A DNA stretch of 64,000 bases, from NCBI GenBank assembly GCA_013791785.1, contig VMTD01000047.1:1704-65703 (forward strand). Direction: 5' to 3'. Origin of the DNA: Methanobacteriota archaeon (lineage in GTDB: Archaea; Thermoplasmatota; Thermoplasmata; SG8-5). The translations under genes and the position numbers were made by a program. Shown here one piece after another: positions 14,906-61,899 of the stretch; within the stretch, counting starts at the first letter, position 1; each line of letters starts with the position of its first letter. Below the pieces are notes generated by a model. The model saw only the letters and a program-made list of their open reading frames with translations. It was not told the DNA's origin and did no database searches.

Positions 14906-14986
14906 ATTAGGACACTACCCGAAATTAATTTATACCTTGACAATCATATATTAATATATGGCATTCAGACAGGGGATTTTAGGAAA

Positions 14987-32630: not shown

Positions 32631-32973
32631 GTTTCACTGAATACTAACACCCCATCTTCAGTTTGACCTATGTGAAAACAAGTTAAAATATTTCTATCAT
32701 TAAATAGTTAAACGTCATTCATCGGTCATATGATAGTCCTCGAGGACGATTTCAACCTGCGCCTTCTGAGGCATCCGGCCTCCGGAAACGCTGTCAGAGT
32801 AAACATCAACTCGCTGGCAAAGGACCTGGGCATGCACAGGACCGCGACCGGACAGTTCATATTGAAAATACCTGGATTACCCTATCCTAATTAGCTGAAT
32901 TACTGTTGACCAAATCACATATATACATGAAAAAGATACCTCGTGCCATCCCTCAAAGGGGGCATTAATTAAC

Positions 32974-33468
32974 ATGATAAATCATGATAACATCGCTAAC
33001 TTAGAAAATATAACAGATGCTGTATTAAACAGATACAATTATGAAAAACACTCTTTGATATCAATATTGCTCGATATTCAGACAAATTTCAATTATTTAC
33101 CAAAAGAAGCTATGATTATGGTTGCAGAAGAATTGAACATACGAGTCATTGATGTGTATTCCGTTGCCACATTTTACACGGTCTTCAGCTTGAAACCAAG
33201 AGGGAAATACATAATCAATGTATGCGTAGGTACAGCCTGCCATGTGAGGGGAGGACGCAGGATAGTTGATAAAATTCAAAAAGAACTGAATATCGATGTT
33301 GGTGAAACAACAGAAGATATGCAATTCACCCTCGAAACAGTCCGATGCCTCGGCGCATGTGCTCTGGGTCCTGTTATGGTAATTAATGGAGAATATTATG
33401 GTCAGTTGAGCACCAAAAAAGCAAATACAATACTACAATCATATAAAGTACAGGAGGCGGCGACATGA
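32974..33468 (+). CDS. NuoE/HoxE-like 2Fe-2S thioredoxin-fold subunit
   Basis: CVGTACHVRGG ... CLGACALGP four-Cys motif; RBS aagggggc upstream. Confidence 0.85.
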   Translation: MINHDNIANLENITDAVLNRYNYEKHSLISILLDIQTNFNYLPKEAMIMVAEELNIRVIDVYSVATFYTVFSLKPRGKYIINVCVGTACHVRGGRRIVDKIQKELNIDVGETTEDMQFTLETVRCLGACALGPVMVINGEYYGQLSTKKANTILQSYKVQEAAT

Positions 33469-33881
33469 TACATCTAAAACTCAAGTGCCACCATTGTGGA
33501 GAAAGCCTGATGGACCCAGATTTCGAGATTGACGACCATCCCAGTGTGAGAATTATTGTTGCATCTAATGGAGAAAAAGGAATATTACGCTTGAGCTCAC
33601 TCTATGGAAGTCACAAAAAAGATTCTGAATTAGATGTCCAAGAGGGAGAAATTGTTCGAATATTTTGTCCACATTGCAATGTCGATATGAAGAGTAGCAG
33701 GTTTTGTTATGAGTGCAAGGCACCCATGATCACATTTGAATCTCTTCTGGGTGGATATATTCGAGTATGCTCACGATGGGGTTGCAAGAAACAACTTGCA
33801 GAGTTTGAGAATTTGGAAACAGAGCTTAGGGCATTTCATGCGAAATATTCTCTCTCTCCTCAAGGGAGGGGGGAAAAATGA
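33465..33881 (+). CDS. double zinc-ribbon (4x CxxC) small protein translationally coupled between the hoxE-like and hoxF-like genes
   Basis: CHHCGE...CPHCNV...CYECKAP...CSRWGC; ATGA overlaps at both ends. Confidence 0.6.
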   Translation: MIHLKLKCHHCGESLMDPDFEIDDHPSVRIIVASNGEKGILRLSSLYGSHKKDSELDVQEGEIVRIFCPHCNVDMKSSRFCYECKAPMITFESLLGGYIRVCSRWGCKKQLAEFENLETELRAFHAKYSLSPQGRGEK

Positions 33882-36800
33882 CAGCAGAATTCAAAAATAA
33901 TGATGATATAAATAAATTAAGAAACATAATCAATAAGAAAAAAGATTCAAACAAGACATTTATTACAATGTGCTCTGGAACGGGATGCTTGGCTTCCGGC
34001 AGTGGAAAAGTTACTGAAGCCTTTAGAAATTCGTTTAAAAAAATGAATCTTGAAAGCAAGGTCGAGGTTAAAACAACTGGCTGTCATGGTTTTTGTGAAC
34101 ATGGCCCCCTTATCGTGATCCGCCCTTCTGGTATATTTTATCATAAAGTAACACCAGAGGATGTGGATGAAATCATTTCGGAAACTATTCTCAAATCCAA
34201 AGTAGTCGACCGTTTGTTATATGTCAATCCATCAACAGGGGAAAAAATCATTTATGAAAAAGACGTTCCATTTTATAATAAACAAATGAGAATCCTTTTT
34301 GGTAAAAATGGCATCCTTGACCCCACTAGTATCGAAGAATATATCGGTCTGGGTGGTTATTCCGCTTCAGAAAAGGTATTTTCCCGAATGTCATCAGATG
34401 AGATTATTGACGAAGTAAAAAAATCAGGCCTTAGAGGTAGAGGTGGTGCAGGATTTCCAACTGGTTTTAAATGGGATTTCTGTAAAAAAGCAAAGGGCGA
34501 TATGAAATACATTGTATGCAATGCTGATGAAGGAGACCCTGGCGCATACATGAATAGAAGCTTGTTGGAAGGAAATCCACACAGCGTTCTGGAAGGAATG
34601 TTAATCGGTGCATTTGCCATTGGTGCATCCGAAGGCATCATTTACATTAGACATGAATATCCGTTAGCAGTAAAAACAATTGAAAACGCCATGGATCAGA
34701 TGCGAAAATATGGCTTGCTTGGTAATAATATATTAGGATCAGGTTTTAATTTTGACATAAGGATTGTTCCTGGCGCCGGTGCATTTGTTTGTGGTGAAGA
34801 AACAGCACTTATCGCATCAATAGAGGGGAAAAAAGGAGAGCCCAGACAGAGGCCACCTTTCCCAGCTCAAAAAGGAATCTTTGGCAAACCCACGAACATA
34901 AACAATGTTGAAACATGGGCAAATATACCATTAATCATCAACAATGGTGCAGAGTGGTTCACTAATATTGGAGTTGAGGGAGCCAATGGCACAAAAATAT
35001 TTTCTTTGGTTGGAAAAATAAACAACACAGGCTTGGTAGAAGTTCCATTGGGTACCACAATAAGGGAAATGGTATATGATATTGGTGGTGGAATACCCAA
35101 GGGCAAAAAGTTCAAAGCAATACAAACCGGAGGTCCTTCTGGAGGGTGCATACCTGAGAACTTGCTTTCAACACCAATTGATTATGTAAAACTAGCTCAA
35201 GCCGGTTCAATAATGGGTTCCGGCGGTCTTGTAGTAATGGATGAAGATACCTGCATGGTAGATGTGGCAAAATATTTCCTTGGATTTCTTCAGGAGGAAT
35301 CCTGTGGCAAGTGCCTCACATGTAGAGAAGGAATAGAGAGGTTATTGGAAATTGTAACTGATATTACTGAAGGCAAAGGCAAAATGAGTGATATCAATTT
35401 ATTGGAAGAGCTTGGCAATGTTGTTAAAGATGCTTCAATGTGCGGACTTGGCCAAACAGCCCCCAATTCAGTACTTTCGACATTGAGATACTTTATGGAT
35501 GAATATGAACAGCACATCAAATACAAAAGATGCCCTGCTGTAGTCTGTAAGGAAATTATATCCTCGCCATGCCAACATGTTTGTCCGATAGATACAGAAG
35601 CACCTTTGTACATCTCTCTGATAGCCGAAGGACGGTATGAAGAGGCCTTCAATGTTATTATGAAAGATAATCCTCTCCCATCAGTCTGTGCCAGAGTATG
35701 TAGCCATCCCTGCGAGACAAAATGCCAGGCAGGCAAATTCAGCGATCCTATTTCTATCAGAGGACTAAAGAGATTTGTAACTGATTATGCCCAGAAGAAT
35801 GATTTGAAATACTTGCCTGAAAAACAAGAAACAAAGAAAGAAAAGATTGCGATCATCGGTTCAGGACCCGCTGGATTGATTGCGGGCTACTACCTTGGAA
35901 TGAATGGATACCAGACTACGATTTTTGAATCCTTGCCAGTTCATGGTGGCGCATTGTCAGTATGCATTCCCGAGTACAGATTGCCCCAGGCTATACTTGA
36001 ACATGACATTAAAAATATTACAAACATGGGTGTGGAAATAAAATACAATGTTACGGTAGGCAAGGACATTTCATTTGAAGAACTGCGAAAAACCTACCAG
36101 GCAATATTTATTGCGACAGGCGCACGCAAGTCCATTAAATTGGGCATACCCAATGAGGATGCTGATGGGGTACTTTATTCCATGGACTTCCTAAGAGATA
36201 TGGCTCTCGGAAAAAAGATCAATGTCGGTTCACGAATAGGCATTATTGGGGGCGGAAATGCTGCGGTGGATGCAGCCAGGATGGCCAGCCGTATTTCAAG
36301 TATCGAAGAGGCCTCGTTCAATGCTATGATAGATACAGCCGGAATGGCCAGCCGCCTTACGGATTTTGAAGAAGCCACATTGATATACCGGAGAACCAAA
36401 TCCGAAATGCCTGCCTTCGAAGAAGAAATAAAAGCATGCCTGGATGAACGTGTCAAGATGCAGTTCCTTACTGCACCTAAAAGAATATTGGTCAAGGATG
36501 GAAAAATCACTGGATTAGAATGCCTAAAAATGGAATTGGGAGAACGGGACGATTCTGGCAGAAAGAGACCCATCCCCATCGAGGGCTCTGAATTCATAAT
36601 TGAATTGGACACATTGATTATCGCAATCGGTGAACGGCCGGACCTTTCCTTTTTAGATGAAATAGAAGGATTCGAGGTCAATAAGGGAGACACTATCAAA
36701 GTTGACACAGAACTCTACACAACAGGGATAGATGGTGTTTTTGCAGGTGGTGACGTGGTAACTGGCCCGAATACAGTGATTGAGGCCATGGGATCTGGAA

Positions 36801-37099
36801 AGGTAGTAGCTGGATTGATAGATAAATACCTTAAAGGAGAGCCTGTAGAACGAAAATACGAAGTTACCAGACCATCAATGTTCGTGAAACCTGTTGAATT
36901 AACCGAAGAAGAAGTAGCAGAGGCAAGGCGGCCCCTAATGCGATGCACTCCCATAGAAAACAGAACATGCTCCCTTGACGAAGTGGATTTGGGACTATCT
37001 GAGGAAAATGCGATAAAAGAGGCTAGACGTTGCTTGAGATGCGATCTGGAAACTGAGGAAGGAAAGAAACAATTTGAACCGGCAGAGGAAGTGGCATAA
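33878..37099 (+). CDS. NuoF/HoxF-like (NADH/FMN/4Fe-4S) fused to a GltD/NfnB-like FAD/NAD(P)H domain (1073 aa)
   Basis: N-terminal 2Fe-2S Trx-like (CSGTGC..CHGFCEHGP); GLRGRGGAGFPTGFKWDF; ESCGKCLTCREG; ferredoxin Cys clusters; then GSGPAGLIAGYYL... and GGGNAAVDAAR dinucleotide motifs. Confidence 0.85.
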   Translation: MTAEFKNNDDINKLRNIINKKKDSNKTFITMCSGTGCLASGSGKVTEAFRNSFKKMNLESKVEVKTTGCHGFCEHGPLIVIRPSGIFYHKVTPEDVDEIISETILKSKVVDRLLYVNPSTGEKIIYEKDVPFYNKQMRILFGKNGILDPTSIEEYIGLGGYSASEKVFSRMSSDEIIDEVKKSGLRGRGGAGFPTGFKWDFCKKAKGDMKYIVCNADEGDPGAYMNRSLLEGNPHSVLEGMLIGAFAIGASEGIIYIRHEYPLAVKTIENAMDQMRKYGLLGNNILGSGFNFDIRIVPGAGAFVCGEETALIASIEGKKGEPRQRPPFPAQKGIFGKPTNINNVETWANIPLIINNGAEWFTNIGVEGANGTKIFSLVGKINNTGLVEVPLGTTIREMVYDIGGGIPKGKKFKAIQTGGPSGGCIPENLLSTPIDYVKLAQAGSIMGSGGLVVMDEDTCMVDVAKYFLGFLQEESCGKCLTCREGIERLLEIVTDITEGKGKMSDINLLEELGNVVKDASMCGLGQTAPNSVLSTLRYFMDEYEQHIKYKRCPAVVCKEIISSPCQHVCPIDTEAPLYISLIAEGRYEEAFNVIMKDNPLPSVCARVCSHPCETKCQAGKFSDPISIRGLKRFVTDYAQKNDLKYLPEKQETKKEKIAIIGSGPAGLIAGYYLGMNGYQTTIFESLPVHGGALSVCIPEYRLPQAILEHDIKNITNMGVEIKYNVTVGKDISFEELRKTYQAIFIATGARKSIKLGIPNEDADGVLYSMDFLRDMALGKKINVGSRIGIIGGGNAAVDAARMASRISSIEEASFNAMIDTAGMASRLTDFEEATLIYRRTKSEMPAFEEEIKACLDERVKMQFLTAPKRILVKDGKITGLECLKMELGERDDSGRKRPIPIEGSEFIIELDTLIIAIGERPDLSFLDEIEGFEVNKGDTIKVDTELYTTGIDGVFAGGDVVTGPNTVIEAMGSGKVVAGLIDKYLKGEPVERKYEVTRPSMFVKPVELTEEEVAEARRPLMRCTPIENRTCSLDEVDLGLSEENAIKEARRCLRCDLETEEGKKQFEPAEEVA

Positions 37100-37100
37100 T

Positions 37101-37805
37101 ATGGCATCATTCAGAATTGACGGTTTAGATGTTGAAGCAGAAGAAGGATGGACCATACTGGAAACAGCCAAATTCTATGGGATAGATATACCTACTCTCT
37201 GCCATGATGATGGCCTTACCTCCTATGGGGCTTGCAGATTATGCATAGTTGAAGTGGGCGAAGGAAAAAATGCAAAATTGACCACCTCTTGCACAACGCC
37301 GGCTCAAGAAGGAATCAGAGTCAGAACCCACTCCAGAAGAGTAATGAATGCCAGAAAGATGATTATAGAATTGATGATTGCGCGTGCCTCGGGTTCAAAG
37401 ACACTTCAGGATTTGGCAGTAGAATACGGTGTACAGAGTGTTAGATTTAAACTCAAGCATGATGATTGTATTCTCTGCGGTCTTTGTGTGCGCATGTGCA
37501 AGGAGCAGATGATGTCCGGTGCCATTGATTTTGTCGGTCGTGGCAAGGATAGGCGTATTACGACGGCCTTCGACGAAAAATCGGTAGATTGCCGTTTTTG
37601 CGGCGGTTGCATGTATATTTGCCCGATATGTGAACTCAGATGTCAAGGCCCGGATCCACCCGGGGCCATCTGTGGTAGTTGTCTAAATATGGCACCAACA
37701 TGTCTGGATCATTATGATGATGCGCAATGTTTCATGGCTGAAGATGGCTGTGGAACTTGTGTGAGAGAACCAGCAAAAGAAAAAATAGCAGAAAAGGAGG
37801 AATAA
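37101..37805 (+). CDS. HoxU/NuoG-N-terminal-like 2Fe-2S + 4Fe-4S electron-transfer subunit (track start 37074 is over-extended)
   Basis: Fer2_4-type N-terminus (DIPTLCHDD..GACRLCIVEV..TSC) followed by CILCGLCVRMC and CRFCGGCMYICP. Confidence 0.75.
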   Translation: MASFRIDGLDVEAEEGWTILETAKFYGIDIPTLCHDDGLTSYGACRLCIVEVGEGKNAKLTTSCTTPAQEGIRVRTHSRRVMNARKMIIELMIARASGSKTLQDLAVEYGVQSVRFKLKHDDCILCGLCVRMCKEQMMSGAIDFVGRGKDRRITTAFDEKSVDCRFCGGCMYICPICELRCQGPDPPGAICGSCLNMAPTCLDHYDDAQCFMAEDGCGTCVREPAKEKIAEKEE

Positions 37806-37807
37806 AA

Positions 37808-39391
37808 ATGTCGTTTACAAAAACAAACGCGAGTGCAGCCACCCTATCAAAGAACAGAACACCGGGAACAATAACACATTCCAGCGGGATGTGCGCAACA
37901 TGTGTTGATGGATGTATAGGAATGTGTGAGATAGGAAAATCGGCCTATAGGGGACATGAGGTCATATATCCTCAGCCATTTGGAATAATCACCTCGGCAA
38001 ACGAAAAGGACTACCCTGTAGATATGTCTCATTTCACCATACTTGGCGGCGTCGAAAATCCAAAGGGAATCGAAGCTGATAGTGACAAGGCTCTGTTCTC
38101 CAACGTGAATGTTGAACAAAGAATTGGAAAAGATAAAAAAATCAAGGTCAGAATGCCCATGGTCATTCCCGGGCTTGGTTCAACAGCTATTGCAAAGAAT
38201 AACTGGGAAGGATTGGCAATCGGCGCGGCACTGGCTGGCATCCCCCTTACAATTGGTGAAAATGTTTGCGGAATGGATCCTGAATCTGTAATTGTTAATG
38301 GAAAAGTACAACATTCACCGGAACTCGAATGGCGCGTGAACACCTATAAAAAATGGCAGCAAGACGGGTATGGCGCAATAATTGTTCAGGCCAATGTGGA
38401 AGATACTGCACTGGGAGTGCATGAGTATGCCATTTCAAAATTGGACGTTGATGCAGTCGAACTCAAATGGGGCCAGGGTGCAAAGAACATTGGCGGCGAA
38501 GTGAAAATCTCCAATCTGAAAAAAGCACAAATGCTGAAAGAAAGAGGATATGTAGTAATACCCGATCCAACAGACCCGCATGTTATTGAATCATTTGAAA
38601 AGGGTAATTTCAAGGAGTTTGAAAGACACTCCAGAGTTGGTATGGTGGACGGGGAGGCTTTCATAAACAGAGTTAAAGAACTTAGATCACTAGGAGCAAA
38701 GCATGTTTTCCTGAAAACAGGTGCATACAGGCCACTCGCTTTGGCAACGGCCCTTAAATTAGCATCAAAGGCCGGGATAGATATGCTAACCGTCGATGCC
38801 GCAGGCGGCGGAACCGGTATGAGCCCCTGGAGAATGATGAATGAGTGGGGTATTCCTGAAGTGGAACTCCATTCCATGCTTTACAAATATGTCGATATCC
38901 TTGCCAAGAAGGGCGAGTATATCCCAGATATTGTTGTTGCAGGCGGCTTTACCTTTGAAGACCATATCTTTAAAGGCTTATCAATGGGCGCACCTTATGT
39001 CAAACTGATAGGCATGGCAAGGGGACCTCTCGCAGCCGCTATGGTCGGGAAGACCCTCGGAAAACGCATCAATGAAAATGATATGCCTGTTTATGTAGGC
39101 CGATTTGGAAGTTCGAAAGAAGATGTATTTGTCACGGCTTCCGAAGTCAAACAAAAACTTGGAGAAGAGAAGTTCAAGGAACTTCCAACAGGTGCATTGG
39201 GCCTTTACACATACGTAGAAAGGCTTAATCAAGGGCTTAGGCAAATAATGGCTGGCAGTCGTAAATTCAGCTTAGAACATTTGACACGCGATGATCTTGC
39301 CGCATTGACAAAGGAAGCATCTGAAATTTCTGGAATCCCTTGGGTCATGGACATCGATAAAGATGAGGTCGAAAAATTACTTAACGAATAA
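37808..39391 (+). CDS. glutamate-synthase large-subunit FMN-binding domain homolog (GltB domain 2 / PF01645-like) with an N-terminal Cys cluster (track start 37757 is over-extended)
   Basis: CATCVDGCIGMCE; GltB central-domain-like segments (GAALAGIPLTIGENVCG, VELKWGQGAKNIGGE, DAAGGGTGMSPW, VAGGFTFEDHIFKGLSMGA). Confidence 0.7.
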   Translation: MSFTKTNASAATLSKNRTPGTITHSSGMCATCVDGCIGMCEIGKSAYRGHEVIYPQPFGIITSANEKDYPVDMSHFTILGGVENPKGIEADSDKALFSNVNVEQRIGKDKKIKVRMPMVIPGLGSTAIAKNNWEGLAIGAALAGIPLTIGENVCGMDPESVIVNGKVQHSPELEWRVNTYKKWQQDGYGAIIVQANVEDTALGVHEYAISKLDVDAVELKWGQGAKNIGGEVKISNLKKAQMLKERGYVVIPDPTDPHVIESFEKGNFKEFERHSRVGMVDGEAFINRVKELRSLGAKHVFLKTGAYRPLALATALKLASKAGIDMLTVDAAGGGTGMSPWRMMNEWGIPEVELHSMLYKYVDILAKKGEYIPDIVVAGGFTFEDHIFKGLSMGAPYVKLIGMARGPLAAAMVGKTLGKRINENDMPVYVGRFGSSKEDVFVTASEVKQKLGEEKFKELPTGALGLYTYVERLNQGLRQIMAGSRKFSLEHLTRDDLAALTKEASEISGIPWVMDIDKDEVEKLLNE

Positions 39392-39439
39392 ATTTTCATT
39401 TGTTCAGCGAAGCTATGGAGTCAAGGAGGTATTTGTAAA

Positions 39440-40774
39440 ATGGTAATCGAACAAGTAATCGAAAAGGTTAAAAATCGAGACCCGGACCAGAAAGAATTCC
39501 ACCAGGCTGTATGGGAAGTGCTGGAATCAATCGAACCGGTCCTGAAGAAGAACCCCCAATATATGAAGGCCAAGATTTTAGAACGCATAGTCGAACCCGA
39601 GCGCCAGATAATGTTCCGCGTACCCTGGACCGACGATAAAGGCGAAGTTCAAGTGAACAGGGGCTTCAGGGTCCAGTTCAATAGTGCCATAGGCCCGTAC
39701 AAGGGTGGTCTGCGGTTTCACCCGTCGGTCAATCTTAGCACCATGAAATTCCTGGGTTTCGAGCAAACCTTCAAGAACTCGCTCACAGGTCTACCCATGG
39801 GCGGCGGAAAGGGCGGTTCCGATTTCAATGCAACTGGCAAAAGTGAATCAGAGGTCATGCGTTTTTGCCAGAGCTTCATGATGGAATTGTACCGTCACAT
39901 AGGCCCCGATACTGACGTCCCAGCTGGCGATATCGGAGTCGGAGGCCGCGAGATAGGATACCTGTTCGGCATGTACAAGAAGCTGCAAAATGAATTCACT
40001 GGCGTGCTGACTGGCAAAGGCAGAAATTGGGGCGGGTCCCTTATAAGGCCTGAGGCAACAGGCTTCGGCGTGGTCTATTACACACAGGAAATGCTCCGAA
40101 CCGACAACCTCGACATCAAGGGCAAGACTATTGCGATATCCGGTTTCGGGAACGTGGCCTGGGGAGTAGCCAAGAAATGCGAGATGTTGGGTGCCAAGGT
40201 GGTTACGCTTTCAGGTCCGGACGGATACATCTACGATGAAAATGGCGTAACAGGCGCCAAGGTTGATTATATGCTTCAAATAAGGGCCAGTGGTAACGAT
40301 TGTATCAAAGATTATGCTGACAAGTACGATGTCCCATTCTTCCCAGGCGAAAGGCCGTGGTCCGTGAAATGCGACATAGCGATACCTTGCGCCATCCAGA
40401 ATGAGCTGGGCCTTGATGATGCCAAGAAGATAATTGACAACGGTTGTAAGTATGTTACAGAAGCAGCGAACATGCCTTGCACGGCAGAGGCCGTTGAGTA
40501 CTTGCTGAAGAATGGTGCCATGGTCGCCCCGGCAAAGGCCGCGAATGCGGGCGGCGTGGCGACTTCGGGCCTTGAGATGAGCCAGAACAGCATGCGGCTC
40601 AGCTGGAATGCAGAGGAAGTTGATACACGATTGCACCAGATCATGGTCAACATCTACAAAAACTGCTACGATTCGGCCGAGAAATACGGCCATAAGGGCA
40701 ACCTTATTGTCGGCGCAAACATTGCCGGTTTCGTGAAAGTCGCGGACGCAATGCTTGAGCAGGGCATAGTGTGA
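39440..40774 (+). CDS. gdhA: glutamate dehydrogenase
   Basis: KGGLRFHPSVNLSTMKFLGFEQTFKNSLTGLPMGGGKGG catalytic Lys region; GFGNVAWG Rossmann motif; strong RBS aggaggt. Confidence 0.9.
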   Translation: MVIEQVIEKVKNRDPDQKEFHQAVWEVLESIEPVLKKNPQYMKAKILERIVEPERQIMFRVPWTDDKGEVQVNRGFRVQFNSAIGPYKGGLRFHPSVNLSTMKFLGFEQTFKNSLTGLPMGGGKGGSDFNATGKSESEVMRFCQSFMMELYRHIGPDTDVPAGDIGVGGREIGYLFGMYKKLQNEFTGVLTGKGRNWGGSLIRPEATGFGVVYYTQEMLRTDNLDIKGKTIAISGFGNVAWGVAKKCEMLGAKVVTLSGPDGYIYDENGVTGAKVDYMLQIRASGNDCIKDYADKYDVPFFPGERPWSVKCDIAIPCAIQNELGLDDAKKIIDNGCKYVTEAANMPCTAEAVEYLLKNGAMVAPAKAANAGGVATSGLEMSQNSMRLSWNAEEVDTRLHQIMVNIYKNCYDSAEKYGHKGNLIVGANIAGFVKVADAMLEQGIV

Positions 40775-40810
40775 AAAAGCTGACCTTGCACACATAATGA
40801 AAACTACAAT

Positions 40811-40858
40811 CCCCTGAACCCTTCGGTCAGGGGATTATCTATTCTTTTTCTATTTTTC
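40811..40858 (+). terminator. intrinsic terminator hairpin cccctgaacccttcggtcagggg + T-rich tail after gdhA
   Basis: 7-bp GC-rich stem followed by attatctattctttttctattttt. Confidence 0.5.
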
Positions 40859-47241: not shown

Positions 47242-47396
47242 ATGGGTCAACTCCTGGGGGTAGGCAATCATGATTTCTTATTTATAAGCTTTCCAGGAAA
47301 CATTTTTGGCATACCTAAAACTGTTTCCATTATTGGCTCATAGCATGGGTCATCGTAGGCATTGGCCTCTAAGCAATCTTCAGAGAATTCCGTGGT

Positions 47397-50549: not shown

Positions 50550-52322
50550 ATGAACATAATAAAATCAAATGATAATAATGACATTAGTGCTGATATATCC
50601 TCAAAACCCCGAGTAGGATTCTTTGATTTTGCAAGTTGTGAAGGGTGCCAACTTCAAATCGCCAACCTCGAAGAGGAAATTTTGGATGTTGTCGATCGAC
50701 TGGAGATTGTATCTTTTCGTGAGGTCATGAAAAATCACTCTGATGACTATGACATTGCATTTATTGAAGGTTCAATCCACAGGCCAATAGACGAGGAGCG
50801 TCTGAAAGACATACGCTCTAGAGCCGCCATCCTCATCGCTCTGGGGGACTGTGCGTGTACTGGTAGCGTGAACAAGCTTCGCAATGACTGGTCTGTGGAC
50901 AATGTCAAAGCTGAGGTGTACAGGGGTGCTGAGGCCGCCATGAAGAACAACGATTTCTTCGATATATTCCCGACAAAGAGGCTCGACGAAGTCGTTGATG
51001 TTGACTTTTACATTCGTGGATGCCCTGTCAGGAAGGAGCAGGTGCTCTACTACATTAAGCGCCTATCCTCCATGCCACCGCACAAGAATCTGGATCTGAG
51101 ATTTGGTGTCGTACCCAGGGACATTGAAAAAGATGTGCGTTCCATAATCCAGTACAATCCACAAAAGTGTATATTGTGCAGACATTGCGAGATAATATGC
51201 AATGACATTCTAAACGTCCATGCTATAGGGATAACGAATAAAGGAAATGAATCTATTGTTTCCACTCCTTTCGATATCGGGCTGGACAATAACAAGTGCA
51301 TATCATGTGGCCAGTGCCTGGTAAATTGTCCTGTGGGTGCATTCACATCTTCCTCATCCGTGGAGAGAGTCCTGGAACTCCTTGATGATCCAGAAAACTT
51401 TGTGGTGTTCGTCATAGATCCAATTGCAGTGGCTTCGGCCATGGAGATTCTGCCTACAGAGAATACGCAACTCAGACCGGTGATGGGGAGCCTGATTGCT
51501 GCCCTCAGGGACATGAATGTCAAGAAAGTGATTGATTTCACTCACTTTGGTTATCTGTCACTGGCCGCACAGGGCGAGCATGTGAAAACCCACAAGGATA
51601 TGACCTTTACCTCATGGTGTCCCAGCGCCCACAGCTACATAGAAAAGTTCCTTCCCGAGTTCAAGAAACATATTCACAAAGAAACGTCCCCGGAGTACCT
51701 GATGCTGAAAGCATTTAGAAAATGGTACGGTGATGAGAATCTCAAGATAGTGTTTCTTTCCCCTTGCATAGTTCATAAAGGCAATCCTGATTTCGACGCG
51801 GTCCTCACTGCCAGGGAGCTTCCCGGCCTGTTGAAATCCAGGGCGATTGATTTGGATTTCTATGACCCGGAGAAGGGTGCGTTCGATTGTGAACTTGGTC
51901 TGTCCAGTGTTTATGTCAAGGGCGCAAGTAGTGATTATACTTACTCATTGCCCATAATCGAGATTGCCTACATGAGCAAGTTCAACAACCTGGACGCAGG
52001 GTTAGCTGTTACCACCATAGGCGATTATGCCCATGAACTGGCCTTTGACAGCGAGGAGGGCTTTTTCAACGCTCTTGTGATCGAGGATATTACCAGGGCA
52101 AGTAAATACCTGAAAAAAGACATCAGGAAGTACAATGTTGTAGAACTCTATCCGTGTTTCCATGGTTGCTTGACCGGTGGGGGTCAGGTTCCCACAACGT
52201 CCATGGACCTGCTAAATAAGCGTCGCGACCTCCTGAAAAATTATAAAGGCGAGTGCAAGGCCAAGGATTTGTTCGTTTCCCAGATAATTTCTGCATATGA
52301 TTCGATTAAGGAGGTGGAGTGA
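50550..52322 (+). CDS. fusion protein: [NiFe]-hydrogenase small-subunit (proximal-cluster) domain + 2x[4Fe-4S] ferredoxin-like + [FeFe]-hydrogenase H-cluster domain
   Basis: FDFASCEGCQ / GDCACTG / IRGCP; CILCRHCEIICN + CISCGQCLVNCP; TSWCP (C357), SPCIVHK (C406), ELYPCFHGCLTGGGQVP (C536, C540). Confidence 0.75.
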   Translation: MNIIKSNDNNDISADISSKPRVGFFDFASCEGCQLQIANLEEEILDVVDRLEIVSFREVMKNHSDDYDIAFIEGSIHRPIDEERLKDIRSRAAILIALGDCACTGSVNKLRNDWSVDNVKAEVYRGAEAAMKNNDFFDIFPTKRLDEVVDVDFYIRGCPVRKEQVLYYIKRLSSMPPHKNLDLRFGVVPRDIEKDVRSIIQYNPQKCILCRHCEIICNDILNVHAIGITNKGNESIVSTPFDIGLDNNKCISCGQCLVNCPVGAFTSSSSVERVLELLDDPENFVVFVIDPIAVASAMEILPTENTQLRPVMGSLIAALRDMNVKKVIDFTHFGYLSLAAQGEHVKTHKDMTFTSWCPSAHSYIEKFLPEFKKHIHKETSPEYLMLKAFRKWYGDENLKIVFLSPCIVHKGNPDFDAVLTARELPGLLKSRAIDLDFYDPEKGAFDCELGLSSVYVKGASSDYTYSLPIIEIAYMSKFNNLDAGLAVTTIGDYAHELAFDSEEGFFNALVIEDITRASKYLKKDIRKYNVVELYPCFHGCLTGGGQVPTTSMDLLNKRRDLLKNYKGECKAKDLFVSQIISAYDSIKEVE

Positions 52323-52808
52323 GTGGACACCAAAGATAAGTTCATAATTGATACGATACTGGAAAAATTCACCGACATGAAAGACCCTACTTTAATGATA
52401 TTACAGAACATCCAGGAGATACTGGGATGTGTGCGAGAGGAATATCTCACATACGTGGCCGAAAGCAACGGTTATTCTTTGACAGAGTTGTATGGTATAG
52501 TATCATTCTATCCGCAGTTCAGGTTGAGCCCGCCAGGTAAACACACGATCAAGATATGCAAGGGAACAGCGTGCCATGTTCGCGGCGGTGCCGCTATTCA
52601 GAAGAACCTGCAGAACCTCCTTGGAATCAAACCAGGTGATACAACCGAGGACGGTGTTTTCACTCTGGAATCCGTGAGATGTCTGGGATGTTGTGGCCTT
52701 TCCCCGGTCATAATGATAGATAATGAAACCTATGGAAGGGTGAAAACATCAAAACTACAGGAAATTTTGGTCAAGTACAAGGGGGTGAGTGCTAATGAAA
52801 ATCAGTAA
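52323..52808 (+). CDS. NuoE/HoxE-like 2Fe-2S subunit
   Basis: CKGTACHVRGG ... CLGCCGLSP; start overlaps the upstream stop; RBS aaggaggtgg. Confidence 0.85.
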   Translation: MDTKDKFIIDTILEKFTDMKDPTLMILQNIQEILGCVREEYLTYVAESNGYSLTELYGIVSFYPQFRLSPPGKHTIKICKGTACHVRGGAAIQKNLQNLLGIKPGDTTEDGVFTLESVRCLGCCGLSPVIMIDNETYGRVKTSKLQEILVKYKGVSANENQ

Positions 52809-55800
52809 TATTTCAGACCTCGACAAAATGGCCAGGGAGGGCGAGGAAAGACTTTACAATACACGTGCCCAGTTGATATTTGGCCTTGGTACATGTGGCA
52901 TTGCAGCCGGCGGTTTGCCTCTGAAGGAATTTGCTGAGAGTTACATTGACGAGAAAAACATCAAGGCAGACATAATCTCGGTTGGCTGCATTGGTATGTG
53001 TCATGCTGAACCCCTGGTAGACGTCAAGCTTCCTGGAAAACCCAGGGTCACATATTCTGAAGTTGACCTAGAAAAGTTGAAGATAATAATCGACGAGCAC
53101 CTAATTGGCGGTACTCCCTCACGGGATATGGCCCTTTGCCAGCTGACCAAGGAGATATCCGAGTGCGATTATGGAATTATTGACGAACCAGACCTTTACG
53201 ATGACATACCAACCTATGAGGAACTCCCATTCTTTTCAAAACAGCGCAGAATAGTCCTGAGGAATTGCGGAATAGTGAATCCAGAGGACATCACAGAATA
53301 CGTGGCCAGAGGAGGATACCGGTCCGCATTCAAGGCTCTTCACGAAGTGGCCAGGGGCGGTATCATTGATGAGATGAAGATATCTGGAATCAGGGGAAGA
53401 GGAGGTGCTGGTTTCCCCACTGGACTGAAATGGGATTTCTGTAGCAGGGCTCCGGGTGATGTAAAGTACATGATTTGCAACGCGGATGAAGGCGATCCCG
53501 GCGCATACATGGACCGTGCTGTCCTTGAAGGTGACCCTCACAGTGTAATAGAGGGCATGGTGATAGGCGCATATGCCATGGGTGCCAGCCAGGGCTATAT
53601 CTACATCAGGGCAGAATATCCGCTGGCCATAGAGCGTCTGAAGAAGGCAATTGAGCAGGCTGAAACGCTTGGCATACTGGGCGATCGAGTTTTAGGTGTG
53701 GATTTCAGTTTCAGGATACACATTCGCGAAGGGGCAGGCGTGTTCGTTTGCGGTGAAGAAACAGCGCTCATCCGTTCCATCGAGGGTAAGAGGGGCGAGC
53801 CCAGGCCCAGGCCTCCGTTTCCGGCGGCCAGTGGTCTATGGGGAAAGCCCACGAACATAAACAATGTAGAGACATGGGCAAATGTGGCCATGATACTCCA
53901 GAAGGGCGGTAAATGGTTCTCCTCAATGGGAACAATGAAAAGTCCTGGCACCAAGGTTTTCTCACTGGTTGGAAAGACCGAACGTGCAGGTCTCGTTGAA
54001 GTGCCCATGGGCATTCCAATGAAGGATATAATATTCGAGATAGGGGGGGGCATCCCGGACGGCAGAAAGTTCAAGGCCGTTCAGACTGGCGGTCCATCGG
54101 GAGGCTGTATACCAGCCGAACATCTGGATATCGGAGTGGATTATGAGAACCTGAAGACCCTGGGTTCGATAGTCGGCTCTGGGGGAATGGTCGTGTTGGA
54201 TGAGGATACTTGCATGGTAGATGTTGCCAGGTATTTTCTTACGTTCACATCCGAGGAATCGTGCGGCAAATGCACACCATGCCGTGTTGGAACGCGAAGG
54301 ATGCTGGAGGTTCTGGACAAAATATGTAATGGCCATGGCGAGATGTCTGACATTGACATTCTGAAAAGTCTTTCAGTCCAGATAAGGGACAGTGCCCTGT
54401 GTGCATTAGGCGGCACCGCGCCCAACCCTGTAATGACGACGATGAAATATTTCATGAACGAGTACCTTGAGCATGTTCAGCTGAAAAAGTGCTCTGCCTC
54501 GGTTTGCGCTGCACTGTTCAAGTCACCGTGTCAGAACACATGCCCTGCAGAGACCAATGTTCCTAGTTACATCCAACTTATCAACGAAGGTAGGTTTGTG
54601 GAAGCCTATGAGGTCAACAGGGAAAACAATCCGTTCCCATCAATTTGCGGAAGGGTGTGTGAGCATCCCTGCGAACCCAGGTGCCAGCGCGGTCAACTTG
54701 ACGAGGCCATTGCCATTCGTGAGCTCAAGAGGTTCTGCTCCGACGAAGCAATCAAGGCAGGCCAACCAGCAAAAATATCAACACTGGAGAAGGTGAACAA
54801 GACCGTTGCCATCGTTGGCGGAGGCCCATCCGGCCTTTCTGCAGCATATTTCCTTGCCAGACTCGGTTACTCTCCAACAGTGTTTGAATCCGCACCAAAG
54901 GCCGGTGGATGGCTGAGATACGGAATTCCAAAATACAGATTACCACACGATGTTATTGACAAGGAAATAGAGGACATAGTCAACCTGGGTGTGGAACTCA
55001 AGACTGGAATTGCAGTTGGCCGTGACGTGACCCTCTCCAAACTTAAAGAGGAGTATGATGCAGTATATCTGGCAGTTGGGGCCCAACTTGATAAGAAACT
55101 CGGATTGGAAGGTGAAAATTTACCTGGCGTTCTTCCTGGATTGCAGGTTCTCAGGGATATCAACTCAGATAAGCCAGTCAATATTGGAGAAAAGACTCTA
55201 ATCATTGGTGGTGGCAATGTTGCAGTTGACGTTGCTCGAACAGCAGTTCGCATGGGCACTGAGGTAACTATCTGCTACCGAAGAGAGGAGCAGGACATGC
55301 CTGCCTACGATGAAGAAATTCAGCATTGCAAGGAGGAGGGCGTTGTCTATCATTTCCTGGTATCTCCCGAGAAATTGATTATAGAGAATGGCAAGGCCGT
55401 AGGCGCAGTATTCCGCAGGAATGTTATGGGTGACTTCACAAAGTGGGGCAGGAGAACGCCAGTGCCCACAGACGAGACATTGGAGGTCAGGGCAGACAGC
55501 GTTATTGTTGCCATAGGCCAGGACCTTGATGGAAGATTTGCAAAAGATTTCCATGGTGAACTTTTCAGCAAGTCCAACCTGGTAATTGCAGGTGACGGTC
55601 TTGTAACCGGTGACCCCAAGATTTTCGCAGGCGGAGACGCTGTCAGAGGCCCTGCCAGCGTCATTGATGCCATAGCCGATGGTAAGCAGGCGGCCAGAAG
55701 TATAGATATCTTCCTGGGAGGTGAGGATAGGTTTGCAGAGCTGGAGAGGTCCAACTTCAAGGATTACGGAATGGAAGAACCCAAGAACGAGGACACTCTT

Positions 55801-61898: not shown

Positions 61899-61899
61899 T

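What the first reader, a model, noticed from the sequence alone, without database searches (positions are those of the whole stretch)
32974..40774. HoxE / Zn-ribbon / NuoF::GltD / HoxU / GltB-FMN-domain operon next to gdhA: candidate NAD(P)H (possibly flavin-bifurcating) ammonia-dependent glutamate synthase-like complex
This is a second, paralogous copy of the NuoE / NuoF::GltD / HoxU module (compare 52323..56628). It is not followed by a hydrogenase but by a ~527-aa homolog of the FMN-binding central domain of glutamate synthase large subunit, with an extra N-terminal Cys cluster, and then glutamate dehydrogenase. The same electron-input module therefore appears plugged into two different catalytic subunits. 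No glutamine amidotransferase (GltB domain 1) gene is present. Combined with the GdhA neighbour, this suggests a 2-oxoglutarate/ammonia-linked reductase. The co-occurrence of NuoF (NADH/FMN), GltD (NADPH/FAD, the bifurcating flavin site in NfnB) and NuoE/HoxU FeS subunits resembles Stn/Nfn-type transhydrogenase compositions. I am not aware of this exact architecture being described.
Basis: partly seen in the sequence, partly recalled or inferred. Interest (0 to 1): 0.8.

Follow-up and report, generated by a model that had tools for sequence, protein, structure and literature searches.

The report
Bifurcating-type NADH module with glutamate-synthase-like subunit
This archaeal operon joins an NADH/NADPH/iron-sulfur electron module of the electron-bifurcating "Bfu" family to a distant relative of the flavin domain of glutamate synthase; the same operon occurs in hundreds of anaerobic species, often beside nitrogen-assimilation genes, and I found no description of it, so it may be an unrecognised link between glutamate/ammonia metabolism and energy coupling.

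Summary
32974-39391 holds five tightly packed genes:
- a NuoE/BfuC-like gene;
- a gene for an 8-Cys zinc-ribbon protein;
- a NuoF/BfuB::GltD fusion;
- a small HoxU/BfuA-like gene;
- a gene for a 527-aa FMN TIM-barrel protein.

NADP-type gdhA follows 48 nt downstream.

The NuoF part is a Bfu-family (HydABC/NfnABC-type) subunit. It scores 770 bits against bifurcating HydB and about 380 against non-bifurcating NuoF/FdsB, and it carries the Bfu-specific His/Cys and PGAxM signatures.

The last protein is only a remote GltB relative. It scores 52 bits on Pfam PF01645 and gives 93.7% probability in profile-to-GltB alignment. It keeps the QGAK catalytic-lysine and FMN-phosphate motifs. It lacks the GltB 3Fe-4S cysteines and instead has an invariant N-terminal Cys4 motif. 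No amidotransferase or GXGXG gene lies nearby.

The operon is conserved in at least 80 species-level genomes from many bacterial and archaeal phyla:
- HoxU upstream in 77/77 loci and NuoE in 55/55;
- GltD fused in 33/55;
- Gdh nearby in about 20%;
- glutamine synthetase adjacent in some Thermoplasmatota.

Most likely it is a Bfu-type NAD(H)/NADP(H)- or ferredoxin-linked, glutamine-independent 2-oxoglutarate + NH3 <-> glutamate oxidoreductase. The substrate and the bifurcation are inferred, not shown. I rate it a new variant of a known kind.

The parts
32974..33468 (+). BfuC / NuoE / HoxE-like thioredoxin-like [2Fe-2S] subunit (164 aa)
   Evidence: PF01257, 184 bits. HoxE and NuoE NCBIfam models score 140-155 bits. 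Present upstream in 55/55 orthologous loci with at least 5 kb of flank.
33465..33881 (+). Zinc-ribbon-like 8-Cys subunit (138 aa). Its start overlaps the NuoE stop and its stop overlaps the NuoF start.
   Evidence: Weak DZR / Zn_ribbon_6 hits. Found in 36/55 loci. Eight Cys (C8, C11, C68, C71, C81, C84, C102, C107) are invariant in 39 sequences. In 31/38 loci it is fused to the C-terminus of NuoE, so it is part of the complex.
33878..35521 (+). BfuB / NuoF part of the 1073-aa fusion (aa 1-548): N-terminal [2Fe-2S] domain, FMN/NADH site, [4Fe-4S], and a His+3Cys (Zn/B2-type) site
   Evidence: Pfam. Best PDB hits are bifurcating BfuB subunits: 7t2r_B 770 bits, then 7q4v_B, 8a6t_B, 9mqx_B and 9n5u_B. 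Non-bifurcating FdsB and Nqo1 score about 380 bits. C459, H546, C552, C557 and the PGAYM motif are conserved, while A. mobile C476 is Thr here.
35522..37099 (+). GltD / NfnA-like part of the same protein (aa 549-1073): 2x[4Fe-4S] (Fer4_20) plus an FAD/NAD(P)H pyridine-nucleotide-disulphide oxidoreductase domain. It replaces the usual ferredoxin-type C-terminus of BfuB.
   Evidence: Pfam Fer4_20 and Pyr_redox_2. Best PDB matches are the NADPH domains of NfnA in NfnABC (9bov_A 383 bits, 9n5u_A 356) and of Stn (8oh5_C), ahead of NfnL (4ylf_B 321). Fused in 33/55 orthologous operons.
37101..37805 (+). Small BfuA / HoxU-like iron-sulfur connector (234 aa): [2Fe-2S], 2x[4Fe-4S], and 8 further C-terminal Cys
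   Evidence: Pfam Fer2_4 and Fer4_7. Best PDB hit is 9mqx_A, the 247-aa WorA 'plug' subunit of WOR-Bfu. Of its 22 Cys, 16 are invariant and 6 are conserved in 73-75 of 76 orthologues, and no conserved His-ligated cluster is present. It lies immediately upstream of the GltS-like gene in 77/77 loci.
37808..39391 (+). Catalytic candidate: 527-aa FMN TIM-barrel protein distantly related to the glutamate synthase (GltB) synthase domain, with an N-terminal CxxCx3Cx3C motif
   Evidence: PF01645, 52 bits. hhalign of the family profile against E. coli GltB 750-1250 gives probability 93.7%, E 1.9e-7, with the QGAK and GGGTGxSP motifs aligned and no Cys at the GltB 3Fe-4S site. The AF2 barrel is confident for residues 100-480. 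Homologues are 67-90% identical across many phyla.
39440..40774 (+). gdhA, NADP-type glutamate dehydrogenase (444 aa). It lies 48 nt downstream with its own GGAGG, and is probably co-transcribed.
   Evidence: NF006929, 736 bits, above cut-off. No hairpin lies between 39391 and 39440. A Gdh gene lies within 10 kb in 17/83 orthologous loci, in several different arrangements, and next to the F420-linked fusion variant.
40808..40836 (.). GC-rich hairpin between the convergent gdhA and the PPDK_N-type gene; a likely transcript end
   Evidence: Read directly from the sequence: AATCCCCTGA ... TCAGGGGATT followed by a T-rich tail. The terminator scan detected it partly.
50550..57923 (+). Paralogous module for comparison: a hybrid [FeFe]/[NiFe] hydrogenase operon (HyhS::HydA, HydC, HydB::GltD, HydD, HyhL)
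   Evidence: Pfam and NCBIfam. It matches the group F hybrid hydrogenase gene set described in PMC11216029. It is 43-44% identical to the first module.

Best explanation
The five genes 32974-39391 encode one soluble complex. The gdhA gene at 39440-40774 is a functionally linked neighbour.

The electron-handling core belongs to the BfuABC (HydABC/NfnABC) family:
- BfuC (NuoE-like) together with a zinc-ribbon subunit.
- BfuB (NuoF-like, FMN/NADH site). Here its ferredoxin-type C-terminus is replaced by a GltD/NfnA-like NADPH-FAD-2x[4Fe-4S] domain.
- A small iron-sulfur BfuA 'plug'.

The plug wires the core to a fifth subunit. That subunit is a FeS/FMN TIM-barrel protein descended from the synthase domain of glutamate synthase. 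It has no glutaminase domain.

Proposed reaction: the subunit most likely interconverts 2-oxoglutarate + NH3 and L-glutamate at its FMN, through 2-iminoglutarate as in GltS. Electrons pass through its N-terminal Cys4 cluster and the BfuA clusters to or from the BfuBC core. The core exchanges them with NAD(H) and with either NADP(H) (GltD-fused form, as in this window) or ferredoxin (the form with a normal BfuB C-terminus).

Shown here: domain content, motif conservation, strict operon conservation, and the Gdh and GS neighbourhoods.

Inferred: cofactor occupancy, that the five proteins form one complex, the substrate, the direction, and whether the coupling is truly bifurcating or confurcating.

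My preferred physiological reading is a sink or source that ties the NADH plus ferredoxin/NADPH pools to glutamate/ammonia metabolism in anaerobic heterotrophs. It would work in parallel with the hydrogenase, which uses the paralogous module in the same window.
For: Bfu membership of the core:
- The NuoF part scores 770 bits against A. mobile NiFe-HydB and 650-716 against other structurally characterised bifurcating BfuB subunits. It scores about 380 against non-bifurcating FdsB and Nqo1.
- The Bfu-specific His and three of its Cys partners are conserved, as is the PGAxM motif (criteria from PMC9304861).
- The N-terminal 2Fe-2S domain is present.
- BfuA is most similar to WorA, the 'plug' subunit of WOR-Bfu (PMC12318220).

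One functional unit:
- Start and stop codons overlap or abut.
- The GltS-like gene is preceded by HoxU in 77/77 loci, NuoF in 68/69 and NuoE in 55/55, in genomes from many phyla.
- NuoF copy 1 is closer than the hydrogenase-linked copy 2 to all 69 partner NuoFs: 66% against 57% mean identity.
- The BfuA Cys are invariant or nearly so (73-76 of 76), including 8 extra C-terminal ones. The four N-terminal Cys of the catalytic subunit are conserved in 23-26 of the 29 family sequences.

GltS-like chemistry:
- Pfam PF01645 is the only family hit.
- The family profile aligns with E. coli GltB at 93.7% probability. 'ELKWGQGAK.IGGE' aligns with 'IQIKVAQGAKPGEGGQ', and 'GGGTGMSP' with 'DGGTGASP'.
- K226 and R246 (at K+20) are conserved.

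Link to glutamate and nitrogen:
- After the operon genes and their regulators, Gdh is the most frequent neighbour. It occurs in 17/83 loci, in at least six arrangements, and belongs to two Gdh subfamilies.
- Glutamine synthetase lies directly downstream in Thermoplasmatota loci L007 and L010, and is also present in L009 and L025.
- A rare fusion of the same catalytic domain to an F420-binding FrhB domain sits directly after two Gdh genes.
- Many bacterial operons lie behind a GAF sensor kinase plus a sigma-54 NtrC-type regulator.
- The F420 (-340 mV) variant and stand-alone paralogues argue that the substrate does not need very low-potential electrons.
Against: - The GltB 3Fe-4S site, the amidotransferase and the GXGXG domain are absent.
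- The 2-oxoglutarate/glutamate couple (about -0.1 V, from my own knowledge) lies above NAD(H). In every characterised Bfu enzyme the third substrate lies between or below NAD(H) and ferredoxin (PMC9304861, PMC12318220), so classical Bfu bifurcation does not obviously apply.
- In this window the BfuB ferredoxin-type C-terminal domain is replaced by GltD, and one Cys of the A. mobile B2 site is Thr.
- Only about 20% of loci have Gdh nearby and about 5% have GS.
- No experimental data or literature on this operon was found.
- The N-terminal 98 residues of the AF2 model have low confidence, so the cluster-to-FMN geometry is untested.
Confidence: 0.48

Rival explanations
1. Same Bfu-type complex, but the FMN/FeS subunit acts on another substrate. 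Candidates are a 2-hydroxy/2-oxo acid, another imine or enamine, or a small redox-active metabolite. On this reading the Gdh and GS neighbourhood reflects shared regulation or a shared cofactor pool rather than a shared substrate.
For: - No GOGAT was found by PDB sequence or profile searches.
- Identity in the hhalign alignment is only about 23%, and the region upstream of QGAK (GltB 'SGEGGE') is deleted.
- The GltS residue Gln at K+6 is Glu here.
- About 80% of loci have no Gdh nearby.
- Characterised Bfu enzymes use mid- or low-potential third substrates.
Against: - PF01645 is the only Pfam family matched, and paralogues match it over HMM positions 60-309.
- The GltS-specific QGAK motif is nearly invariant, with a conserved Arg at K+20.
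- Gdh is the top non-operon neighbour, and it recurs beside the F420-linked fusion.
- GS is adjacent in Thermoplasmatota.
- No other metabolic gene recurs in the neighbourhoods.
Confidence: 0.27
2. A non-bifurcating diaphorase-coupled enzyme. NuoEF (plus GltD) simply delivers NADH or NADPH electrons through FeS clusters to the GltS-like subunit. This would be like HoxEFU in NAD-reducing hydrogenases or FdsABG in NAD-dependent formate dehydrogenase, making it an NAD(P)H-dependent, ammonia-using glutamate synthase with no energy coupling to ferredoxin.
For: - Reductive amination of 2-oxoglutarate is already exergonic with NAD(P)H (established thermodynamics; my own knowledge).
- In this window the ferredoxin-docking C-terminus of BfuB is replaced by an NADPH module.
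- One Cys of the A. mobile B2 site is Thr.
- The His-ligated A2 cluster of BfuA is missing.
- An F420-only fusion variant exists.
Against: - The NuoF part scores twice as high against bifurcating BfuB as against non-bifurcating homologues. It keeps the His and PGAxM residues that PMC9304861 reports as absent from non-bifurcating enzymes.
- 22/55 orthologous operons keep the 2x[4Fe-4S] ferredoxin-type C-terminus of BfuB.
- The N-terminal 2Fe-2S domain of BfuB is present.
- It is unclear why a five-subunit, multi-cluster machine would be kept at 67-90% identity across phyla for a reaction that single-subunit Gdh already performs.
Confidence: 0.2
3. The module is essentially an Nfn/Stn-type NADH:NADPH:ferredoxin transhydrogenase, and the 527-aa flavoprotein is only an accessory or regulatory subunit.
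For: - The composition NuoE + NuoF + GltD + NuoG-N-terminus equals NfnABC/Stn. The GltD part is most similar to the NADPH domain of NfnA.
- NADP-specific Gdh is adjacent.
Against: - 40% of orthologous operons lack GltD altogether, yet all keep the GltS-like gene.
- The GltS-like protein is the most conserved component: 67-90% identity, against 45-77% for the others.
- The window already encodes a conventional NfnAB at 44954-47271.
Confidence: 0.05

Closest known systems
BfuABC family of electron-bifurcating enzymes: HydABC [FeFe] hydrogenase, NiFe-HydABCSL, NfnABC/Stn, WorABCSL (Schut et al. 2022, PMC9304861; PMC12018979; PMC12318220)
   Same: - It has the NuoE-like BfuC.
- The NuoF-like BfuB has the N-terminal 2Fe-2S domain, the FMN/NADH site, the His/Cys site and the PGAxM motif.
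- BfuA has an N-terminal 2Fe-2S plus 4Fe-4S clusters.
- The design is modular: a conserved core plugged into a separate catalytic subunit, as in WOR-Bfu and NiFe-Bfu.
   Different: - The catalytic partner is a GltS-like FMN/FeS TIM-barrel protein. [quoted passage not shown]
- In this window the GltD/NADPH domain is fused to BfuB in place of its ferredoxin-type C-terminus. In NfnABC that domain sits on BfuA.
- There is an extra 8-Cys zinc-ribbon domain or subunit on BfuC.
- BfuA lacks the His-ligated cluster.
- The presumed third substrate has a potential above NAD(H).
Glutamate synthase (GOGAT): NADPH-GltS alpha-beta (GltB/GltD), Fd-GltS, and the archaeal split GltS
   Same: - An FMN TIM-barrel with the QGAK catalytic-lysine motif and the GGTGxSP FMN-phosphate motif.
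- A GltD-type NADPH-FAD-2x[4Fe-4S] electron donor in the same complex (GltD-fused form).
- An alternative ferredoxin-type form also exists, mirroring NADPH- versus Fd-GOGAT.
- It neighbours gdhA and glnA.
   Different: - It has no Ntn amidotransferase, no central domain and no GXGXG domain.
- It lacks the 3Fe-4S CX5CX4C site and has an N-terminal Cys4 motif instead.
- Similarity is only about 23% at profile level.
- It carries an additional NuoE/NuoF NADH module.
- It must use free NH3 or work oxidatively.
Archaeal hybrid [FeFe]/[NiFe] hydrogenase, group F (Greening et al. 2024, PMC11216029), present in this window at 50550-57923
   Same: It has the same set of HydC, HydB::GltA(GltD) and HydD subunits, which are paralogous at 43-44% identity.
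   Different: The catalytic subunits are hydrogenases rather than a GltS-like flavoprotein. The hydrogenase copy keeps the fourth Cys of the B2-type site, keeps the NuoG His-cluster motif in HydD, and lacks the zinc-ribbon subunit.
Putative F420-dependent glutamate synthases, FGltS (Susanti & Mukhopadhyay 2012, PMC3448663; PMC9012536)
   Same: The idea is the same: a GltS catalytic unit coupled to a non-canonical electron-input module. A rare FrhB::GltS-like fusion of the present family exists (P0239).
   Different: FGltS as described pairs FrhB-like proteins with canonical archaeal GltS subunits, including the amidotransferase, and uses glutamine. The present family has no amidotransferase and mostly uses a Bfu module.
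Lactate dehydrogenase/Etf and Bcd/Etf-type bifurcating or confurcating systems
   Same: This is a possible functional analogy. The redox reaction of a relatively high-potential organic couple would be coupled to NAD(H) and ferredoxin.
   Different: The protein families are unrelated (EtfAB against BfuABC). The analogy is untested here.

Membership tests
BfuABC (HydABC-type) electron-bifurcating family | BfuB is a NuoF homologue with an FMN/NADH site and a [4Fe-4S], and is closer to bifurcating than to non-bifurcating homologues. | tested here: met
   Complex1_51K, SLBB and NADH_4Fe-4S domains. It scores 770 bits against 7t2r_B and 650-716 against other BfuB structures, but about 380 against FdsB and Nqo1.
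BfuABC (HydABC-type) electron-bifurcating family | A conserved His plus Cys ligands of the B2/Zn site, and the A202/M204-type residues that are absent from non-bifurcating enzymes (PMC9304861). | tested here: met
   H546, C459, C552 and C557 align with A. mobile H525, C438, C531 and C536. PGAYM aligns with PGAFM. A. mobile C476 is Thr here, which fits the 3Cys+His Zn-type site of most structures.
BfuABC (HydABC-type) electron-bifurcating family | BfuB has an N-terminal [2Fe-2S] thioredoxin-like domain. | tested here: met
   PF01257 hit at aa 21-102, with the CxxxxC...CxxxC pattern.
BfuABC (HydABC-type) electron-bifurcating family | BfuB has a C-terminal 2x[4Fe-4S] ferredoxin-type domain, which forms the ferredoxin docking region. 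| tested here: not met
   In the window it is replaced by GltD (Fer4_20 plus Pyr_redox_2), and the alignment to 7t2r_B stops at residue 541 of 597. The canonical domain is present in 22/55 orthologous operons, for example L004.
BfuABC (HydABC-type) electron-bifurcating family | BfuC is a NuoE-like [2Fe-2S] subunit, and BfuA has an N-terminal [2Fe-2S] plus [4Fe-4S] clusters. | tested here: met
   PF01257 at 184 bits. BfuA has Fer2_4 plus a dicluster, with all Cys invariant or nearly so. The His-ligated A2 cluster is absent.
BfuABC (HydABC-type) electron-bifurcating family | A tightly coupled three-substrate (NAD, ferredoxin, third substrate) bifurcating activity. | not testable with these tools
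   This needs enzyme assays.
Glutamate synthase (GOGAT) large subunit | An FMN-binding synthase TIM barrel with the QGAK catalytic-Lys motif. | tested here: met
   PF01645 at 52 bits. hhalign gives 93.7% probability, with the QGAK and GGTGxSP motifs aligned. The motifs are conserved family-wide.
Glutamate synthase (GOGAT) large subunit | An N-terminal Ntn (class II) glutamine amidotransferase domain or subunit. | tested here: not met
   It is absent from the protein, from all scanned ORFs of the window and from the related loci (tblastn). The one GATase neighbour of a paralogue is PurF.
Glutamate synthase (GOGAT) large subunit | A [3Fe-4S] cluster motif (CX5CX4C) after the FMN domain. | tested here: not met
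   The aligned region has no Cys. Besides the N-terminal four, the protein has only one other Cys.
Glutamate synthase (GOGAT) large subunit | A C-terminal GXGXG beta-helix domain and a central domain. | tested here: not met
   There is no Pfam hit and no tblastn hit with E. coli GltB segments 431-780 or 1201-1486.
Glutamate synthase (GOGAT) large subunit | 2-Oxoglutarate-dependent glutamate formation. | not testable with these tools
   Only context evidence is available: the Gdh and GS neighbourhoods.
Nfn-Bfu / Stn transhydrogenase (NfnABC) | A GltD-like NADPH/FAD domain carried on BfuA, with no further catalytic subunit. | tested here: not met
   The GltD domain is on BfuB, not on BfuA. An additional conserved catalytic subunit is present, and GltD is absent from 40% of orthologous operons.

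The most novel reading that the evidence does not exclude
This would be a previously unrecognised, widely distributed class of flavin-based electron-bifurcating or confurcating enzyme. At least about 590 species-level genomes carry the catalytic gene, spread over many bacterial and archaeal phyla. The enzyme would couple the glutamate / 2-oxoglutarate + NH4+ couple to NAD(H) and ferredoxin, or to NADP(H) in the GltD-fused form.

Two directions are possible:
- Reduced-ferredoxin-assisted oxidative deamination of glutamate in protein-fermenting anaerobes.
- ATP- and glutamine-independent reductive amination that is high-affinity and effectively irreversible, and that serves as a sink for NADH and ferredoxin electrons.

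Either way it would be a direct energetic link between central nitrogen metabolism and electron bifurcation.
Probability: 0.3. Interest if true: 0.85.

Novelty: new variant of a known kind. Interest (0 to 1): 0.66.

Why it matters
- The Bfu family is a current focus of anaerobic bioenergetics. Its authors state that 17-18 of 57 clades have no assigned function. This operon supplies a concrete, abundant and highly conserved candidate with a catalytic partner of a new type.
- If the partner handles glutamate/2-oxoglutarate, there would be a third route of ammonia/glutamate interconversion beside Gdh and GS-GOGAT. It would be tied to ferredoxin or to NADH/NADPH balancing.
- The lineages that carry it dominate anoxic sediments and digesters: Thermoplasmatota, Theionarchaea, Aminicenantes, Zixibacteria, Bacteroidota, Ignavibacteria, Planctomycetota including an anammox genus, ANME-1 and Methanoperedens.
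- The finding also corrects annotation. These NuoEFG-like genes risk being read as 'bifurcating hydrogenase', and the last gene as 'glutamate synthase'.
- The third substrate would lie at a higher potential than NAD(H). The enzyme would therefore test how general the proposed Bfu flavobicluster mechanism is.

Tried and rejected
1. Direct sequence (phmmer) and family-profile searches of the PDB for a solved relative of the 527-aa protein found only designed TIM barrels and OMP decarboxylase. A low-diversity profile against E. coli GltB gave only 10% probability. A diversified family profile was needed to reach 93.7%.

3. A glutamine amidotransferase gene next to a paralogue in L039 looked like a split GOGAT. 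Its sequence carries the PurF PRTase motif and it recurs in no other locus, so I rejected this lead.

4. I tried to verify the GltS residue numbering (Lys972, Arg992, Glu903) in the literature. The papers are not held, so those residue roles rest on my own knowledge. I dropped Glu903 because I could not map it.

5. Six literature searches for this operon found nothing. The supplement of Schut 2022 does not mention glutamate.

6. Bacterial promoter and terminator scans were no better than shuffled sequence, as expected for an archaeon.

7. ORF clustering of 86 loci found no further recurrent metabolic neighbours beyond Gdh, GS, the two-component system, a small Cys-rich protein and the PPDK_N-type protein.

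Full report
**1. What is there**

The + strand of 32974-40774 carries six real genes.
- Pfam and NCBIfam identify a NuoE/HoxE-type thioredoxin-like [2Fe-2S] protein at 32974-33468.
- A 138-aa Cys-rich protein with weak zinc-ribbon hits lies at 33465-33881.
- A 1073-aa fusion lies at 33878-37099. It has an N-terminal [2Fe-2S] domain, then a NuoF core (Complex1_51K, SLBB, NADH_4Fe-4S), then a GltD part (Fer4_20, Pyr_redox_2).
- A HoxU / NuoG-N-terminus protein lies at 37101-37805.
- A 527-aa protein at 37808-39391 has one Pfam hit only, PF01645 (Glu_synthase). The hit is weak (52 bits) and partial.
- An NADP-type GdhA lies at 39440-40774.

The first five genes overlap or abut. gdhA follows after 48 nt with its own GGAGG and no intervening hairpin. 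A GC-rich hairpin follows gdhA.

The window is archaeal. It contains ABCE1/RLI and a MetOD1 response regulator. The closest locus, L001, has Orc1/Cdc6.

**2. The electron module is Bfu-type**

The NuoF part matches structurally characterised bifurcating BfuB subunits far better than non-bifurcating homologues.
- A. mobile NiFe-HydB 7t2r_B scores 770 bits.
- A. woodii and T. kivui HydB, WOR-Bfu 9mqx_B, and T. sibiricus and C. saccharolyticus NfnB score 650-716 bits.
- FdsB and Nqo1 score about 380 bits.

In the residue alignment the Bfu-specific His (A. mobile H525) and three Cys partners are conserved, as is the PGAxM motif. Schut et al. report these as missing from non-bifurcating enzymes (PMC9304861). 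One Cys (A. mobile C476) is Thr here. That corresponds to the 3Cys+His zinc site seen in most Bfu structures (PMC12318220).

The alignment to BfuB ends where the usual 2x[4Fe-4S] ferredoxin-type C-terminus would start. That domain is replaced by GltD. The nearest solved relatives of this GltD part are the NADPH domains of NfnA in NfnABC and of Stn.

The HoxU-like protein is most similar to WorA, the 247-aa 'plug' subunit of WOR-Bfu. Across 76 orthologues, 16 of its 22 Cys are invariant and the other 6 are conserved in 73-75. They comprise:
- a [2Fe-2S] set;
- two [4Fe-4S] sets;
- eight further C-terminal Cys.

**3. The zinc-ribbon protein is part of the machine**

It occurs in 36/55 orthologous operons. 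Eight Cys are invariant in 39 sequences. In 31/38 loci it is simply the C-terminal domain of NuoE.

**4. The catalytic candidate**

The 527-aa protein has thousands of homologues of 525-527 aa. They are 67-90% identical and come from many groups:
- Archaea: Thermoplasmatota, Theionarchaea, ANME-1 and Methanoperedens.
- Bacteria: WOR-3, Omnitrophota, Aminicenantes, Zixibacteria, Bacteroidota, Ignavibacteria, Planctomycetota (including Scalindua), Chloroflexota, Desulfobacterota, Firmicutes and others.

The family is compact. Among 1.8 billion 50%-identity representatives only 1079 hits reach E<=1e-3, and many of those listed are fragments.

It is distant from canonical GOGAT.
- PDB sequence and profile searches find none.
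- The AF2 model is confident for the barrel (residues 100-480) but poor for residues 1-98.
- The model's best structural neighbours are IDI-2, 2-hydroxyacid oxidases and IMPDH.

Homology to GltB is nevertheless supported.
- A diversified family profile aligns with E. coli GltB 786-1176 at 93.7% probability.
- 'ELKWGQGAK.IGGE' lies on 'IQIKVAQGAKPGEGGQ'.
- 'GGGTGMSP' lies on 'DGGTGASP'.
- 'AGGF' lies on 'DGGL'.

From my own knowledge, the Lys of QGAK is the catalytic Lys972 of GltS, and Arg992 (K+20) binds 2-oxoglutarate. Here K226 and R246 (also K+20) are conserved.

The GltB 3Fe-4S cysteines are absent. Instead, a CxxCx3-4Cx3CE motif at residues 29-40 is conserved through the whole family.

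**5. Conservation of the operon**

I ran tblastn with the window's proteins against 83 non-redundant loci.

| Feature | Loci with feature / loci with enough flank |
|---|---|
| HoxU-like gene directly upstream of the GltS-like gene | 77/77 |
| NuoF | 68/69 |
| NuoE | 55/55 |
| GltD fused to NuoF | 33/55 |

The other 22 of 55 have a 617-aa BfuB with the normal ferredoxin-type C-terminus.

The NuoF core of this operon is closer than the hydrogenase-linked paralogue to all 69 partner NuoFs, at 66% against 57% mean identity. The module has therefore co-evolved with this catalytic subunit.

**6. Clues to function**

Unbiased clustering of all ORFs in the loci shows which genes recur beside the operon, apart from the operon genes themselves.
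- A GAF sensor kinase plus a sigma-54 NtrC-type regulator, and a small Cys-rich protein, lie upstream in many bacteria.
- Glutamate dehydrogenase is next. tblastn finds it in 17/83 loci, and the ORF clustering puts it in 20 of 86 sources. It occurs upstream, downstream or on both sides, on either strand, and belongs to two Gdh subfamilies.

No other metabolic gene recurs, with one exception. Glutamine synthetase lies directly downstream in Thermoplasmatota L007 and L010, and is also present in L009 and L025.

A rare fusion of the same catalytic domain to a ferredoxin + FrhB (F420) module exists. In its only long contig it follows two Gdh genes and a small ferredoxin. Stand-alone paralogues also exist.

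No amidotransferase or GXGXG gene occurs in any locus. The one GATase seen next to a paralogue is PurF.

**7. Interpretation**

- The anatomy points to a Bfu-type complex whose third-substrate module is a FeS/FMN enzyme of GltS-synthase ancestry.
- The retained QGAK and Arg motifs, together with the recurring Gdh and GS neighbourhoods, make 2-oxoglutarate + NH3 <-> glutamate the most likely reaction.
- The F420-linked and stand-alone variants argue against a very low-potential substrate.
- The interchange between a ferredoxin-type BfuB C-terminus and a GltD NADPH module mirrors Fd- versus NADPH-GOGAT.
- The energetic logic is unresolved. The glutamate couple lies above NAD(H), whereas in characterised Bfu enzymes the third substrate lies between or below NAD(H) and ferredoxin.

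Three readings remain open:
- NADH plus reduced ferredoxin (or NADPH) are confurcated into an effectively irreversible reductive amination, acting as an electron sink or a high-affinity assimilation route.
- Reduced ferredoxin assists glutamate oxidation, by analogy with Ldh/Etf.
- There is no real bifurcation.

I cannot discriminate between these with sequence data.

**8. Known versus new**

- The paralogous module at 50550-57923 is the published archaeal hybrid [FeFe]/[NiFe] hydrogenase, whose HydB carries the same GltA/GltD fusion (PMC11216029).
- Bfu modularity is established (PMC9304861). That paper names no glutamate-synthase-like type and leaves 17 clades unassigned.
- Six full-text searches found no description of this operon.
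- A genome paper on an Ignavibacteria/Chlorobi relative reads extra NuoEFG-like genes as a bifurcating hydrogenase (PMC6338057). I did not check whether those genes belong to this operon, but the risk of such misannotation is clear.

I rate the finding a new variant of a known kind. The architecture is well supported and the function is inferred.

Noticed in passing
window 50550-57923 (+): A complete hybrid [FeFe]/[NiFe] hydrogenase operon. It comprises HyhS::HydA (Oxidored_q6 + Fer4 + Fe_hyd_lg_C in one 590-aa protein), HydC, HydB::GltD, HydD and HyhL. It matches the group F archaeal hybrid hydrogenase of Greening et al. 2024.
   Followed up: partly
window 44954-49103 (-) and 59209-63282 (+): The region is a redox gene island. 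It holds NfnAB-like genes (46411-47271 NfnS-type, 44954-46414 NfnL/GltA-type), a CoA-disulfide-reductase-like protein with a rhodanese domain (47397-49103), and a sulfhydrogenase-like group 3 [NiFe] hydrogenase set (59209-63282).
   Followed up: partly
window 40839-43817 (-); also L001, L007, L009, L024, L064, L072: A roughly 990-aa protein has only a PPDK_N (PEP-synthase-type ATP-binding) domain in its C-terminal half. The L001 orthologue has a faint receiver-domain hit. It lies next to gdh and the Bfu/GltS-like operon in both archaeal and Bacteroidota genomes. Its function is unknown and it may be regulatory.
   Followed up: partly
window 32730-32894 (+) and 50218-50322 (-): A 54-aa ORF just upstream of the operon is 49% identical over 35 aa to the N-terminus of the 352-aa HTH regulator (49276-50334, - strand) that lies divergently upstream of the hydrogenase operon. 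It may be a remnant of a duplicated regulator, or a small regulator in its own right.
   Followed up: partly
window 32390-32640: The 668-nt intergenic region upstream of the operon contains several short tandem repeats: 'tttagat' units, 'caatctacaatc' units and 'cactttt/cacttta' units. An A/T-rich 'catatatac' lies about 45 nt before the ATG and could be an archaeal TATA box.
   Followed up: no
window 13914-14905 (+): An IS1-like transposase is split over two overlapping ORFs (an InsA-type zinc ribbon, then DDE_Tnp_IS1). It sits in a low-GC stretch (0.417 GC at 14001-16000, against about 0.50-0.55 in the neighbouring stretches).
   Followed up: no
L034 1433-5182, L074 1547-5210, and about 19 other bacterial loci: Bacterial versions of the operon are preceded on the same strand by three genes: a cytoplasmic GAF-HisKA sensor kinase, a sigma-54 NtrC-type response regulator, and a roughly 110-aa protein with two CxxC...C...WxCE repeats. 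In L039 a GAF-ANTAR regulator sits there instead.
   Followed up: partly
L087 4355-10403: An 800-aa fusion of 2x[4Fe-4S] + FrhB/FdhB (F420-binding) + the same GltS-like domain is preceded by two ELFV (Gdh-type) dehydrogenase genes and a small ferredoxin. Pyrrolysine biosynthesis genes (PylC/PylD-like) lie further upstream.
   Followed up: partly
L039 2997-4643 (-), L066 5015-6604 (-), L089 6001-7605: A paralogous clade of the GltS-like protein is about 50% identical to the operon form. Its members in L039 and L066 are 70% identical to each other. In a Desulfatiglandales genome and a Methanoperedens genome it lies divergently next to the Bfu operon. In Methanoperedens it sits beside riboflavin kinase and ribB. 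Elsewhere it stands alone.
   Followed up: partly
window 36299-36367 (aa about 808-830 of the NuoF::GltD fusion): Copy 1 has a 23-aa insertion (about 'SIEEASFNAMIDTAGMASRLTDF', aa 808-830) inside the second Rossmann (NAD(P)H) region of the GltD part, relative to the hydrogenase-linked copy 2. Its effect on nucleotide binding is unknown.
   Followed up: no
L007 11671-13639, L010 4702-6608: In Thermoplasmatota the operon is followed directly by glnA and a small HTH regulator, and is preceded by gdh and the PPDK_N-type gene. Together these form a compact nitrogen-assimilation-like cluster.
   Followed up: yes
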